Assembly: GCF_009914755.1 (NCBI RefSeq)
Contig: NC_060943.1
From: the human T2T-CHM13v2.0 reference genome, Homo sapiens
Length of the DNA: 64,000 nucleotides
Reading direction: 5' to 3' (one strand)
The position numbers were made by a program, and so were the translations under genes. The notes under the pieces were generated by a model, which was not told the DNA's origin, did no database searches, and saw only the letters and a program-made list of their open reading frames with translations. Numbering within the stretch: position 1 is the stretch's first letter; each line of letters starts with the position of its first letter. Positions 30,216 to 34,491 of this stretch are shown one piece after another.

Positions 30216-30279
30216 GAGAATCTTGACAGTGAATGTGTCTCATTACATTGAATAACAGCTACAGGATGTTCGAGAGCTG
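30216..30279 (+). other. ZNF283: ZNF283 exon 3 (64 nt; 5'UTR/uORF, or coding if the Alu exon is skipped)
   Basis: Acceptor gatttacag|GA and donor CTG|GTAGGT. Contains in-frame ATGs at 30233 and 30266. Confidence 0.7.
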
Positions 30280-32382
30280 GTAGGTGTAAATTGTTTCAGG
30301 CCCACTGATTTTCAGTGTTGGCCCCGTTTGTTCAGTTTTCTTAATGACTGGAATATATTCCTCCTGTCACTCAGTTTTTTACATTTGGAAATGTCTTTAT
30401 AGTTCCAATTATGGAATTAATGCAGGCTTGGTCCAAAAAAAAAACTCAGCGGTCCAGGAGACATATAGAGAAGGAAGCTAAAAATTGCATCCTCTAGAGT
30501 TAATCATTTTTAATGTTTTGGTGTTTTTTTTCTTTTTCTTTTTTGAGATAGTTTCTCATTCTGTCACCCAGGTTGGAGTGCAGTGGTGCAATGTCAGCTC
30601 ACTGCAACCTCCACCTCCCAGGCTCAAGCGATCCTCCCACCTCAGAGGGAAGGTAGCTGGGACCACAGGTGTGTGCCACCATGCCCAGCTAATTTTTCAT
30701 GTTTTTGATAGAGATGGGGTTTCACCATGTTGCCCAGGCTGGTCTTGAACTCCTGAGCTCAAGCAATCCGCCTCCTTTGGCCTTCCAAAGTGCTGGAATT
30801 ACAGGCGTGAGCCACCACACCCAGCACTTTGGAATATTTTTATTTAAATCCTTTTTCCTTTGAGCCTATGGGTCTGTTTTTTTTTCTTTTTTTCTGCAGA
30901 ATAAAATTATAGTAATTGGTGATGTAAATGAATTGAAGACTCTTTAGTTCTTAGTTTGAAAAAAAAATCCAACCCAGTTCTAGGTTTTATGTTAATCTTG
31001 AATATTTAGGGAGAAGAGGGAAGTACTAGTGATTCCCTTATTTGAAAACCTTCAAATATTTACAACTTCTGGGATTATAGAAATGTCATTTAAAAATGAA
31101 TTACCAGGCAAAAAAGAGTTTTAGAATTAGATTATTTTAAAGGTTACCTCTACAGACAATGGCAATAATCTCCAATATACAGCCATCTTACAAAAAATAC
31201 ATTTTACAGATAATATTTCCAAGGACAGGTGTAAATACCAGGAGGTAGAATAAGAAGGTTCTTGTTGTAAATGTTTAAGTAAACCACCAATTTGTACAGA
31301 AGACTGAGCCTTTGGTTAAGTTCTCAGCTTTATACCTAATCAGGTTGTATTTTCTGATGCAGCTTAATGATGCTGAATCTCTATGTAACTTCTGGGAGGA
31401 AGGGGTATTTTCCTCTATATGTTTCTGAGAACCTGTTTTGCTCACATTGTTATTTAGGAAGAATAGCAGACTCAAGGTTGACCTGTGAAATTTGAGTTCA
31501 CGTTATAAGAAAGCAGGTCTGAGAAAGACACATTTTACTGTGAGCAAAATAGAGTAGCCTTAAGTTTCTTTGGCATAACAGGATAAGGGACAGTAACATT
31601 CTTCATTTTCAATAATAATGATGAAAATGTGGCCAAGCCTGGTGGCTTGCACCTGTAATCCCAGCACTTTGGGAGGTCAAGGCAGGAGGATTCCTTGAGC
31701 TCAGGAGTTCGAGACCAGCCTGGACAACACAGTGAGACCCTTTCTTTACAAACAATTTTAAAGAAGAATCATTAGTCGGGCAAGGTGGCGTGCACCTGTG
31801 GTTCCAGCTACTGGGGATGGAGGCTGAGGTAGGAGGATCACTTGAGCCCAGGAGGTTGAGGCTGCAGTGAGCTGTGTTTGTGTCACTACACTCCAGCCTA
31901 GGCAACAGAGCAAGACCCTGTCTCTGAAAAAAAAAAAAAAAAAAAAAGACAACTTATAAACAATTATCATATACCATTCAGTATTTTGTATGGATTTCTT
32001 ACTTACTCTTCTATGGTAGACACTGTTCTCACCCGTCTTACTGATGAGGAAACAGAGGTATTGAGAAATGGATAACTATCAAGCTCAAATTCACATCCTA
32101 AAGCTCTCACACCAGAACTTTTATCTTAATTTCAATAGAATATGCCTCCCACATTATGTTAGTTACAAACCGGCCTGCCTAAGGAATTGATCATGCATGT
32201 CTTTCTTCATCAATTAATATGAACCAACACCATCATAACTAATGAGGATATGGTGGGCCATAATTTATTAAACCTTTTGCTTACTATTACGTAGTTTCTC
32301 ATTTTTGGTTACCAGAAATTATTTTTGGTTGAGTACCCTTGTGTATTCATCTTGTGTGTTTCTTTCTTCTTTACCTATTTCT

Positions 32383-32679
32383 TTTTTTTTTTTTTTTTTT
32401 CAGATGGAGTCTCGCTCTGTCGCCCAGGCTGGAGTGCAGTGGTGCGATCTTGGCTCACTGCAAGCTCCGCCTCCTGGGTTCACGCTATTCTCCTGCCTCA
32501 GCCTCCTGAGTAGCTGGGACTACAGGTGCCCGCCACCACACCCAGCTAATTTTTTTTGTAGTTTTAGTAGAGACGGGGTTTCACCATGTTAGGATGGTCT
32601 CGATCTCCTGACCTCGTGATCCACCCACCTCGGCTTCTCAAAGTGCTGGGATTACAGGCATGAGCCGCCGTGCCTGGCC
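32383..32679 (-). mobile_element. AluY, partly exonised into ZNF283
   Basis: AluY diagnostics (gcaagctccgcc, ttcacg, ggatggtctcgatctcctgacctcgtgatcc) and TSD TTCTTTACCTATTTCT on both sides. Confidence 0.95.
32404..32525 (+). CDS. ZNF283: ZNF283 Alu-derived coding exon ([40 protein letters not shown]..)
   Basis: Poly-T tract then cag|ATG, donor CAG|GTGCCC, 122 nt. Splices in frame (AG+T = Ser) to 34404. Matches the ZNF283 N-terminus as I recall it. Confidence 0.85.
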
Positions 32680-34403
32680 CTTCTTTACCTATTTCTTAAG
32701 GATACATTTCTAGAAGTGAAGTTTTGGGTAAAGAATTTGCCCCAAATGCCTGACCCTGTGATACTTGTACTTAGCGGGTAATACAGTGTTTGGAAGACAT
32801 AGTTGTTACCTTGGAGACCAAATATGCCTTGGGGTAAGCATAAGGCAGCCAGCAGTCAGCAACAAAGGCCAGTAGGCAATCCAGGGGACCTGCTTTAGGA
32901 ACTCATAGGAAGGCAGTTATAAGCAATACCGTTGAACCATGATCAAGCATTTGGAGGCAAATGGAATTTATTCTGTAAGGTTTATACTTTATAGTTTTTA
33001 TTCTACTAATGTTGGTTGCAAAGTGAGCCTAATAGGATCAGGTGATTCAGTTATCTGGATTCAGTTATCTGGAGAGTACCATGTCTAAGACAGGTTCAGA
33101 TACAAAATAAATCCATCAGTCAAGATAAGAAAAGTAGAATCAAAACCTCATTAATGGAAGGGGAACAAAAAAATAAATAAAACCTCCCCTCAAAAAATGA
33201 AAAAAAAGGATGAAATTCCTCAACTTAGGCCATGAATATATTAATATCATTTCATTAATATTATTCCATTAGTATTATTCCATTAATATATACATGGCAT
33301 AACTTGGGGAATTTCATCCTTTTTTTTTCTAGGCAAGACATAGGCATATGTAGAAATTATACAGTTCATGTAATGTATGGCCATGGTTACAATGATTGTG
33401 TGGATTACCTAAACAGAAAACATTATGATCATAATGAAAAGATAAATGTTATTAATATATATAGATATATAATTTTATTTTTTATTTTTTATTTTATTTA
33501 TTTATTTTTTTCGAGATGGAGTCTTGCTCTGTCACCCAGGCTGGAGTGCAGCAGCGCGATCTCGGCTCACTGCCAGCTCTGCCTCCCGGGTTCACGCCAT
33601 TCTCCTGCCTCAGCCTCCTGAGTAGCTGGGACTACAGGCGCCTGCCACCACGCCTGGCTAATTTTTTGTATTTTTGTAGAGACGGGGTTTCACCGTGTTA
33701 GCCAGGATGGTCTCGATCTCCTGACCTCATAATCCACCCACCTCAGCCTCCCAAAGTGCTGGGATCATAGGCCTGAGCCACCTCACCTGGCCTGTTTCTT
33801 TCTTGAGATGTATAACTTTCTAAACATTTTTTCATCTATTGATGTGATTGTCAGTCTTTCTGTATTGATATATATGTATTTTATAAATGTAATCATAAGT
33901 CTCATAACCTCCTTTTTCTATTGAGTATATCTTGATTATTTCCCTAAGTTAGCATGTACTCATTGCATGATGTTCTGCGTCATGAATATTCTGATATATG
34001 CATTAGAAAGTCAGCTTTTTGGGTTCCTGATGAATTCCTTATACAGCCTGTCCAGCTCCCATGTTTTGACCAACTTCCTTCAGTCCTGAGCCCATGAAGG
34101 ACGTTCTAGCTTGGACCATGACAGGTATTCCTGAGAGGTAGGAATGGAAGGAGGATGATCTGATTTCCTGGGCAGGACTGAATTGTCGAATCCCAGGTCC
34201 AGATTCACATCCTCAGAACCAGACACTGCCAGAAACCTCCCTGCTGAAGACCTTTGGGGTTTAGGTGAAAGTTTGAATTCCATAAATGGTGCGTGGGGTG
34301 TGTAGCAGAAGCAGGCATGGAGAAGATAAGATCTTCTATTAGTGTAAGTCAGGATGGGATCACTGAGGCACACCTGGTTTAACGCTTCGTTTTCCCTCCC
34401 CAG

Positions 34404-34491
34404 TTCTGGCTTTTCTGGATTCTGTGCTTCACCAATAGAGGAATCCCATGGAGCATTAATTAGTTCTTGCAATTCCAGAACCATGACTGAT
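34404..34491 (+). CDS. ZNF283: ZNF283 pre-KRAB exon (..SGFSGFCASPIEESHGALISSCNSRTMTD)
   Basis: Acceptor tttccctccccag|T, donor GAT|GTAAGT, open frame. Contains ACCATGA at 34480-34486, the usual KZNF start position. Confidence 0.92.

What the first reader, a model, noticed from the sequence alone, without database searches (positions are those of the whole stretch)
30233..34491. Alu exon as a splice-controlled stop/start switch for the ZNF283 N-terminus
Seen: exon 3 carries an ORF from ATG 30233 (second ATG 30266, better Kozak context with A at -3) reading MCLITLNNSYRMFES and ending in TG at the donor. If the 122-nt Alu exon is included, the junction is TG|ATG. The exon-3 ORF then terminates at a TGA whose A is the first base of the Alu ATG, a -1 overlapping stop/start. 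If the Alu exon is skipped, the junction is TG|T TCT GGC (Cys-Ser-Gly), which is in frame with KRAB-A and the fingers and gives a different N-terminus (652 aa from 30233, 641 aa from 30266, versus 677 aa). A third start, ACCATGA at 34483, sits at the usual KZNF position. Established: UGAUG overlaps mediate termination-reinitiation in some viral mRNAs, and uORFs abutting a start codon usually repress it. Inference: one young AluY toggles the same exon-3 ORF between main start and uORF, tuning protein dose and N-terminus. I know the Alu-derived N-terminus as annotated, but I do not know of this switch being described.
Basis: partly seen in the sequence, partly recalled or inferred. Interest (0 to 1): 0.8.

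Follow-up and report, generated by a model that had tools for sequence, protein, structure and literature searches.

The report
Alu exon reshapes ZNF283 start
An Alu repeat spliced into the front of the ZNF283 message supplies the annotated start codon and also ends a tiny upstream reading frame exactly on that start, but this looks like an ordinary frame coincidence in a well-known class of Alu exons, not a demonstrated switch.

Summary
Exon 3 carries ATGs at 30233 and 30266 and ends in TG. The 122-nt antisense Alu exon begins with ATG. The junction reads TG|ATG. The ORF sizes 677, 652, 641 and 610 aa all reproduce.

- The "in frame when skipped" property is not a second coincidence. It follows arithmetically from the TG|A overlap.
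- On chr19, 3 of 24 genes whose CDS starts at the first base of an internal exon have TGA across the junction, which is the chance rate.
- RefSeq does hold the skip junction 30279>34404. That transcript also skips KRAB-A, so the exon-3 ORF is again a uORF of 65 codons.
- The TURBS core motif that viral termination-reinitiation needs is absent from the leader.
- ATG 34483 sits where most KZNF genes start.

Most likely this is a canonical Alu exonization in a KZNF 5' leader. Its small uORFs would push ribosomes past the Alu ATG toward 34483. I could obtain no expression, translation or orthologue data. Verdict: a new member of a known kind, of low to moderate interest.

The parts
27159..27161 (+). 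First uATG of the RefSeq Select leader (exon 27101-27180). Weak context. It opens a 10-codon uORF that crosses the splice and stops at 30224-30226.
30216..30279 (+). Exon 3 (64 nt), used with donor 30279 in both RefSeq transcripts. It is not in a masked repeat, and no paralogous copy was found in the genome.
30230..30232 (+). In-frame TGA that bounds the exon-3 ORF directly upstream of ATG 30233.
30233..30279 (+). Exon-3 ORF. ATG 30233 has a weak context (T at -3, T at +4). ATG 30266 has A at -3 and T at +4. The ORF runs 15 or 4 codons and then TG at the donor. It is a uORF when the Alu exon is included. It is an in-frame N-terminal extension only if the Alu exon is skipped and KRAB-A is kept.
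32366..32383 (.). Upstream copy of the perfect 18-nt target-site duplication.
32384..32679 (-). Alu element (296 nt) inserted antisense to ZNF283. On the + strand it opens with a 17-nt T run (its A tail). It holds 12 CpG. A published table names an AluY exonization for ZNF283.
32404..32525 (+). Exonized Alu right arm (122 nt, 61% GC). The acceptor is the T run plus CAG. The donor is CAG|GT. ATG at exon base 1 is the RefSeq Select CDS start. Only this 1 of its 3 frames is open.
32680..32697 (.). Downstream copy of the 18-nt target-site duplication.
34404..34491 (+). Exon 5 (88 nt). Only the KRAB frame is open. It is homologous to a wholly coding 87-nt exon of the paralogue ZNF546.
34448..34459 (+). 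Out-of-frame 3-codon mini-ORF between the Alu ATG and ATG 34483.
34483..34485 (+). ATG in ACCATGA, 9 coding nt before the donor. This is the usual KZNF start position. The ATG aligns with one in ZNF546. It would give 610 aa.
35952..36078 (+). 127-nt KRAB-A exon (Pfam PF01352, E 7.3e-28). It is skipped in NM_001297752.2.
45847..47543 (+). Coding part of the last exon: linker plus C2H2 zinc fingers.

Best explanation
This is a canonical exonization of the right arm of an antisense Alu in the 5' leader of a KRAB zinc-finger gene.

Shown:
- The Alu supplies a T-run/CAG acceptor, a CAG|GT donor and an ATG at exon base 1. That ATG lies in the Alu's only open frame, and the 122-nt length puts it in frame with KRAB. 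Annotation therefore starts the CDS there.
- Exon 3 happens to end in TG, so its reading frame closes on the A of that ATG.

Inferred:
- In the Alu-containing mRNA the exon-3 ATGs head ordinary 15- and 4-codon uORFs, and ATG 27159 heads a third.
- Ribosomes that translate them end on top of the Alu ATG with no distance in which to regain initiator tRNA. They mostly pass it and restart about 165-200 nt downstream. This favours the conventional ACCATGA start at 34483.
- Ribosomes that leak past the weak uATGs can use the Alu ATG (C at -3, G at +4).
- The mRNA therefore probably yields a mix of the 677-aa Alu-headed protein and the 610-aa conventional protein, at reduced overall efficiency.
- The uORF versus in-frame-extension duality with splicing is real arithmetic. 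It is an automatic by-product of the frames, not evidence of a selected switch.
For: - Splice sites, ATGs, frames and ORF sizes.
- Alu identity: masked repeat 32351-32683; perfect 18-nt TSD; 82% mean column identity to the ZNF573 Alu, which is exonized at the same acceptor and donor positions and also starts with ATG; 159 exact genomic copies of the 33-nt pattern 'T-run, YAG, ATG...' against 0 for the reversed control; AluY named for ZNF283.
- Chance-level junction stop: 3 of 24.
- Conventional start: in 163 of 192 chr19 RefSeq Select ZNF genes with a coding 127-nt exon, the CDS begins in the exon just upstream. The median is 15 coding nt, and 20 of the 163 have 9 nt, as ATG 34483 would give. 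ZNF283's annotated 210 nt is the third largest of the 192. The ATG aligns with one in the paralogue ZNF546.
- No TURBS core motif in the 268-nt leader.
- Reinitiation after short uORFs rises with distance, and a 1-nt overlap likely precludes it (review passages).
- Alu inclusion adds 122 nt of 61% GC. Predicted leader folding goes from -111 to -168 kcal/mol.
- 5'-UTR Alu exons are an established class linked to translational efficiency (passages).
Against: - No RNA-seq, Ribo-seq, proteomic or orthologue data could be reached, so start-site use is inferred from scanning rules only.
- The Alu-containing transcript is the RefSeq Select form. It is 1 of only 2 among 1377 chr19 Select transcripts whose CDS start lies in a masked repeat. 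The exon is therefore well established, not marginal.
- Pre-KRAB N-terminal extensions may be a real trait of this subfamily. Pig ZNF283 is described with KRAB at aa 56-97. ZNF546 is annotated with 57 codons before KRAB-A, starting in an upstream exon. This leaves room for exon 3 having been a genuine start before the Alu arrived.
- DENR-MCT-1 or eIF2D-type reinitiation is described as independent of distance, so some restart on the overlapping ATG cannot be excluded.
Confidence: 0.6

Rival explanations
1. Regulated inclusion or skipping of the Alu exon purposefully toggles the exon-3 ORF between a repressive uORF and the main start. This would tune ZNF283 dose and choose between N-termini.
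For: - The frame arithmetic is correct.
- Both junctions exist in RefSeq.
- The Alu exon sits behind a long U tract, the kind of site where hnRNP C and U2AF65 are reported to compete (title of a reference seen; the mechanism is recalled).
- Pig ZNF283 and the paralogue ZNF546 carry pre-KRAB extensions.
- A regulated 5'-UTR Alu exon that controls protein output is documented for AURKA.
Against: - The only curated Alu-skipped transcript also lacks KRAB-A, so the exon-3 ORF is a 65-codon uORF there.
- The in-frame property is automatic.
- The junction stop is at the chance rate.
- ATG 30233 has a weak context.
- Exon 3 has no detectable paralogue. The 5' part of exon 5 is read in different frames in ZNF283 and ZNF546 because of a 1-nt indel.
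- There are no data on regulation.
Confidence: 0.12
2. Virus-like coupled termination-reinitiation. Ribosomes that finish the exon-3 uORF at UGAUG are held on the mRNA and restart on the overlapping Alu AUG, so the uORF promotes the Alu-headed protein.
For: - The -1 stop/start overlap UGAUG is present.
- Cellular precedents with UGAUG are discussed for mouse GAD and the long SLAMF1 leader.
- The uORFs are very short, so initiation factors may persist. DENR-MCT-1 or eIF2D can act without distance.
Against: - The TURBS motif 1 core is absent. There are 0 matches in the whole 268-nt leader, whereas it should lie 40-90 nt upstream of the stop.
- The viral mechanism follows long ORFs.
- The overlap occurs at the chance frequency.
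Confidence: 0.05
3. Annotation artefact of the longest-ORF rule. The Alu ATG and the exon-3 ATGs are essentially unused, and the cell makes only the 610-aa protein from ATG 34483.
For: - 34483 is the usual KZNF position and has A at -3.
- Its ATG aligns with one in ZNF546.
- The Alu ATG has C at -3 and follows three uATGs.
- CDS starts in repeats are rare among Select transcripts: 2 of 1377.
Against: - The Alu ATG has G at +4 and precedes 34483 by 201 nt, so scanning ribosomes meet it first.
- An out-of-frame ATG at 34448 lies before 34483.
- The analogous Alu-first exon of ZNF573 appears in a published table of coding Alu exons with translational or proteomic evidence. I could not see the column meanings.
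Confidence: 0.2

Closest known systems
Established Alu exons in 5' UTRs of human genes, notably zinc-finger genes (Lin 2008, Shen 2011, Lin 2016)
   Same: An antisense Alu exon upstream of the conserved start of a chr19 ZNF gene. Inclusion is alternative in the curated transcripts. The expected effect is on translational efficiency.
   Different: Here the exon's first three bases are the annotated start codon of the RefSeq Select transcript, and the preceding exon's ORF stops on it. I could not read Shen 2011 (not held). ZNF283 was not mentioned in the passages I saw.
ZNF573 Alu-first coding exon (NM_152360.4, chr19)
   Same: Same acceptor and donor positions in an antisense Alu, with ATG at exon base 1 annotated as the CDS start. 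A ZNF573 Alu exon of 122 nt is listed among coding Alu exons in Lin 2016. It is probably the same exon.
   Different: The junction is AG|ATG, so there is no stop and no uORF overlap. It is an older-looking Alu with a different middle region. It is not the Select transcript.
Human SLAMF1 long-leader isoform: last uORF overlaps the main AUG as UGAUG
   Same: A short uORF (29 codons there, 15 or 4 here) whose stop overlaps the main start by 1 nt, in one leader isoform only.
   Different: SLAMF1 is reported to have a TURBS-like core sequence upstream. ZNF283 has none. In ZNF283 the overlap is created by a splice junction with an Alu exon.
TURBS-dependent termination-reinitiation of caliciviruses and influenza B
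   Same: An overlapping stop and start (UGAUG/UAAUG type).
   Different: It needs a UGGGA core 40-90 nt upstream that pairs with 18S rRNA helix 26, and it follows a long ORF. Both are absent here.
AURKA 5'-UTR Alu exon controlled by SRSF1
   Same: An alternatively included exonized Alu in a 5' leader that changes protein output.
   Different: [quoted passage not shown] It is not a change in ORF status.
Paralogue ZNF546 N-terminal extension
   Same: A homologous 87-nt exon (77% identity) carries the conventional ATG but is annotated as wholly coding, with the start in an upstream exon.
   Different: The upstream exon is unrelated to ZNF283 exon 3 and no Alu is involved. A 1-nt indel shifts the frame of the 5' third of the exon.

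Membership tests
Antisense Alu right-arm exonization | The exon lies inside an Alu that is inserted antisense to the gene, with retroposition hallmarks (A tail, target-site duplication). | tested here: met
   Masked repeat 32351-32683. 17-nt T run and perfect 18-nt direct repeats at 32366-32383 and 32680-32697. 82% mean column identity to another Alu. AluY listed for ZNF283.
Antisense Alu right-arm exonization | The acceptor is a YAG right after the U tract. The donor is in the right arm, about 120 nt downstream. | tested here: met
   CAG|ATG at 32401-32406 and CAG|GT at 32523-32527. Same positions as the ZNF573 Alu exon.
5'-leader Alu exons that modulate translation | The exon lies upstream of the conserved start codon and is alternatively included. 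| tested here: met
   ATG 34483 is at the family-typical position. RefSeq has one transcript with the exon and one without.
5'-leader Alu exons that modulate translation | A measured change in translational efficiency on inclusion. | not testable with these tools
   No reporter, polysome or Ribo-seq data were reachable. Only a predicted increase in leader structure is available.
TURBS-dependent termination-reinitiation | Stop and restart codons overlap or lie within a few nt. | tested here: met
   TG|ATG at 30278-30279 and 32404-32406.
TURBS-dependent termination-reinitiation | Motif 1 core UGGGA 40-90 nt upstream of the stop (definition). | tested here: not met
   0 matches to TGGGA in the entire 268-nt spliced leader.
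TURBS-dependent termination-reinitiation | Complementary motifs 2 and 2* that form the TURBS structure. | not tested
   Not meaningful without motif 1.
Reinitiation-permissive short uORF (GCN4/ATF4 type) | A short uORF. | tested here: met
   10, 15 and 4 codons.
Reinitiation-permissive short uORF (GCN4/ATF4 type) | A spacer long enough to regain the ternary complex before the next AUG. | tested here: not met
   Not met for the Alu ATG, where the overlap is -1 nt. Met for the downstream starts, 165 nt to ATG 34448 and 200 nt to ATG 34483 (rule).
   0 of 2 RefSeq transcripts. The Alu-skipping one also skips KRAB-A and yields a 65-codon uORF.
KRAB zinc-finger protein gene | A KRAB-A box on a 127-nt exon, followed by C2H2 fingers on the last exon. 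| tested here: met
   PF01352, E 7.3e-28. Finger repeats are visible in the translation.

The most novel reading that the evidence does not exclude
The Alu exon really works as a three-way selector of the ZNF283 N-terminus. The three forms would be the Alu-headed 677 aa, the exon-3-headed 652/641 aa and the conventional 610 aa. The 4-codon uORF that ends in UGAUG would hand ribosomes to the overlapping Alu AUG by a distance-independent restart route of the DENR-MCTS1 or eIF2D type. Stress or splicing factors would then shift the ratio. The hydrophobic Alu-derived head would decide whether the protein is nuclear and KAP1-bound or cytoplasmic. Tagged ZNF283 was reported as predominantly cytoplasmic.
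Probability: 0.07. Interest if true: 0.55.

Novelty: new member of a known kind. Interest (0 to 1): 0.25.

Why it matters
If the arrangement were functional, it would be a clean human example of a primate-specific repeat rewiring where translation starts on a transcription-factor mRNA. It would be testable with simple reporters.

As it stands, its main value is cautionary. The reference protein of ZNF283 begins in an Alu, 1 of only 2 such Select transcripts among 1377 on chr19. The conventional start lies 67 codons downstream. Experiments that use the annotated ORF may therefore carry a 67-residue head that the cell makes only in part.

Tried and rejected
Orthologue N-termini.
- I made two protein searches with the last-exon translation, one with the whole 564 aa and one restricted to the unique linker, residues 1-95.
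- The first listed only other zinc-finger proteins at 62% identity or less. The second found nothing.
- 1019 and 17 candidates of untold source were left out before scoring.
- Whether the exon-3 ATGs or the Alu exist in other primates therefore stayed unchecked. The third search was not spent.

Paralogue route.
- Exon 3 has no second copy in the genome.
- Exon 5 has one, in ZNF546.
- The upstream coding exon of ZNF546 shows no similarity to the ZNF283 5' region. The best match is a 24-nt promoter-proximal identity.

Literature.
- Shen 2011 is not held.
- ZNF283 with Alu: 6 papers. Only one is relevant, through a single table row.
- ZNF283 alone: 72 papers, of which 40 were listed. None of those I opened deals with its leader.
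- The glioma paper's ZNF283 splicing event is an alternative terminator, not the Alu exon.
- The breast-cancer TWAS hit is for expression, not splicing.
- The searches on uORF plus N-terminal extension gave 0 and 2 papers.
- My statement that the switch is not in print rests only.
- Supplementary tables are closed. Lists of Alu exons, Ribo-seq ORFs and hnRNP C targets there may mention ZNF283.

Alu subfamily and age. The subfamily name comes from the paper. The diagnostic look of the middle region and the usual age of AluY are recalled, not tested.

Splice-site scoring was not done because no scoring model was at hand. The leader folding is generic and proves nothing about scanning.

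
Full report
OBSERVATION

- Exon 3 (30216-30279) follows an AG and precedes GTAGGT.
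- It holds ATG 30233, with T at -3 and T at +4, and a TGA directly before it at 30230-30232.
- It also holds ATG 30266, with A at -3.
- The frame reads 15 codons and ends in TG at the donor.
- The next exon of the RefSeq Select transcript (32404-32525, 122 nt) starts with ATG directly after a T run plus CAG, and ends CAG|GT.
- In the spliced mRNA the junction is TG|ATG. The exon-3 frame therefore stops at a TGA whose A is the first base of the annotated start.
- Exon 5 (34404-34491) carries ACCATGA at 34483, three codons before its donor.
- A script that joined the exons by coordinate reproduced 677 aa (32404), 652 aa (30233), 641 aa (30266) and 610 aa (34483).

- ATG 27159 has a weak context and opens a 10-codon ORF that stops at 30224-30226.
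- ATG 34448 is out of frame and opens a 3-codon ORF. It lies between the Alu ATG and 34483.

WHAT THE ANNOTATION ADDS

RefSeq holds two transcripts.
- NM_181845.2 (Select) includes the Alu exon and the 127-nt KRAB-A exon.
- NM_001297752.2 includes an extra leader exon (26676-26840, five uATGs). It joins 30279 directly to 34404, and it also skips KRAB-A.

In that molecule, however, the exon-3 ORF runs out of frame into the last exon and stops after 65 codons at 45907-45909. It is again a uORF. The transcript on which the switch depends (Alu skipped, KRAB-A kept) is in 0 of 2 RefSeq transcripts. I could not reach other gene sets or reads.

ONE COINCIDENCE, NOT TWO

The uORF takes two bases (TG) from exon 3 for its last codon. 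The Alu ORF starts at exon base 1 and the exon is 122 = 3n+2 nt long, so it also hands two bases to exon 5. Both leave phase 2. If the Alu ATG is in frame with KRAB and the upstream frame stops as TG|A, then skipping the exon must put the upstream frame in the KRAB frame. This follows from the coordinates.

IS IT MORE THAN CHANCE?

On chr19, 24 of 1410 coding genes have some RefSeq transcript whose CDS begins at the first base of an internal exon. I fetched those junctions from the reference.
- 3 of 24 read TGA across the junction (ZNF433, ZNF283, MEIS3). Two of sixteen random dinucleotides would give a stop.
- Only ZNF283 also has an in-frame ATG in the preceding exon.
- For ZNF433 and MEIS3 the frame stays open to the exon start. 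I did not check earlier exons.
- With 15 open codons, the chance of at least one ATG is roughly one in five (my estimate).

Nothing here calls for selection.

THE ALU

The element spans 32384-32679 on the minus strand.
- It has a 17-nt T run on the plus strand.
- Perfect 18-nt direct repeats flank it at 32366-32383 and 32680-32697.
- It retains 12 CpG.
- A table in Amit et al. 2007 lists 'AluJb AluY' exonizations for ZNF283 cDNA AK098175. I saw that one table row only.

The exon uses the classic sites. The Alu exon of ZNF573 on the same chromosome aligns at 82% mean column identity. It uses the same acceptor and donor positions and also begins with ATG, annotated as the CDS start. A 33-nt pattern 'T run, YAG, ATG and the next 24 bases' occurs 159 times in the genome (83 forward, 76 reverse), against 0 for the reversed control. 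Alu copies with a ready acceptor followed by ATG are therefore common raw material. Only 1 of the exon's 3 frames is open, and the ATG is in it.

WHICH START IS THE NORMAL ONE?

I examined 192 chr19 RefSeq Select ZNF-type genes that have a wholly coding 127-nt exon.
- 163 start their CDS in the exon just upstream of it.
- The median is 15 coding nt, and 20 of the 163 have exactly 9 nt, as ATG 34483 would give.
- ZNF283's annotated 210 nt before KRAB-A is the third largest of the 192.

The 127-nt exon is a KRAB box (PF01352, E 7.3e-28). Exon 5 has one paralogue in the genome, an 87-nt exon of ZNF546 (77% identity, E 6.4e-14). The ATG of the ACCATG context aligns in both.

ZNF283 is also 1 of only 2 of 1377 chr19 Select transcripts whose CDS start lies in a masked repeat. 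The other is VN1R2.

EVIDENCE THAT CUTS THE OTHER WAY

- ZNF546 is annotated with a start in an upstream exon and 57 codons before KRAB-A.
- A paper on pig ZNF283 places its KRAB at aa 56-97 (passages). Pre-KRAB extensions may therefore be a trait of this subfamily, and exon 3 may have been a genuine start before the Alu arrived.
- Against that, the upstream exon of ZNF546 is unrelated to ZNF283 exon 3.
- A 1-nt indel puts the 5' third of the shared exon in different frames in the two genes.
- The pig ORF was cloned from a predicted CDS, which does not show where translation starts.

MECHANISM

The review by Gunisova et al. (passages) states three relevant things.
- Viral termination-reinitiation needs a TURBS with a UGGGA core 40-90 nt upstream of the stop.
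- Reinitiation after short uORFs grows with distance.
- A 1-nt UGAUG overlap, as in the long SLAMF1 leader, 'likely precludes' the ordinary short-uORF mode.

The 268-nt ZNF283 leader has no TGGGA at all. I therefore read the exon-3 ORFs as ordinary small uORFs. Ribosomes that use them, mostly at 30266, the only uATG with a purine at -3, end on the Alu ATG without initiator tRNA. They restart further on, at 34448 (165 nt) or 34483 (200 nt). Ribosomes that leak past the uATGs can take the Alu ATG (C at -3, G at +4). These steps are inferred from scanning rules.

Alu inclusion also adds 122 nt of 61% GC. It deepens the predicted leader fold from -111 to -168 kcal/mol.

COMPARISON WITH WHAT IS KNOWN

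- Alu exons are known to be enriched in 5' UTRs and are linked to translational efficiency. ZNF genes are among the examples (passages in Lin 2008, Lin 2016 and a 2021 review).
- Shen 2011, which I recall as the key paper on ZNF leaders, is not held.
- AURKA has a regulated 5'-UTR Alu exon that raises protein output by another route (abstract and passages).
- UGAUG uORF/main-ORF overlaps are discussed for SLAMF1 and mouse GAD.
- A 2024 preprint on alternative transcripts that recode genes was seen only as a search listing.
- My searches found no paper that describes the ZNF283 arrangement. Supplements are closed.

VERDICT

This is a new member of a known kind: an Alu exon in a KZNF leader that reshapes uORFs and the start codon. 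Function is unproven and there is no sign of selection.

The practical point is that the reference ZNF283 protein carries a 67-residue head, 40 residues of it Alu-derived, that may be made only in part. Tagged ZNF283 was reported as predominantly cytoplasmic, which might relate to that head.

Noticed in passing
window 45910-45930 (last exon): The projected CDS of NM_001297752.2 begins at 45923, which is not an ATG in this assembly. It is 1621 nt long, not a multiple of three. This suggests a small indel between the RefSeq mRNA and this reference. No in-frame ATG occurs until about 46035.
   Followed up: partly
window 26152-26175; L030 (chr19:42817232-42817255): A perfect 24-nt identity lies about 10-70 nt upstream of the annotated transcription starts of ZNF283 and its paralogue ZNF546. 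It is the only strong match between the two 5' regions, so it may be a shared promoter element.
   Followed up: no
L010 (chr19:40560021-40560141, minus strand): ZNF573 NM_152360.4 has an Alu exon with the same acceptor and donor positions and ATG at exon base 1 as its CDS start. Its junction is AG|ATG, so there is no stop.
   Followed up: partly
chr19 annotation: Only 2 of 1377 RefSeq Select transcripts on chr19 (ZNF283 and VN1R2) have their CDS start inside a masked repeat of 100 nt or more. Counting all transcripts, 25 genes do.
   Followed up: partly
L005/L022 (ZNF433) and L018 (MEIS3): Two other chr19 transcripts have TG|ATG across the junction before an exon-first start codon. Their phase-2 frame stays open to the start of the preceding exon. 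Earlier exons were not checked for uATGs.
   Followed up: no
window 26676-26840: The extra leader exon of NM_001297752.2 carries five ATGs that head ORFs of 4-41 codons, so that transcript is heavily loaded with uORFs.
   Followed up: no
window 36079-45846: In both RefSeq transcripts no KRAB-B exon is used. KRAB-A joins directly to the finger exon. The paralogue ZNF546 has a 96-nt coding exon after its 127-nt exon. I did not search the intron for a relic.
   Followed up: no
L031 (chr19:42826302-42826388) versus window 34404-34491: In ZNF546 an ATG lies 16 codons upstream of the conventional ATG, where ZNF283 has ATA. From there on the two exons encode similar residues, 10 of 19 identical by my count.
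   Followed up: partly
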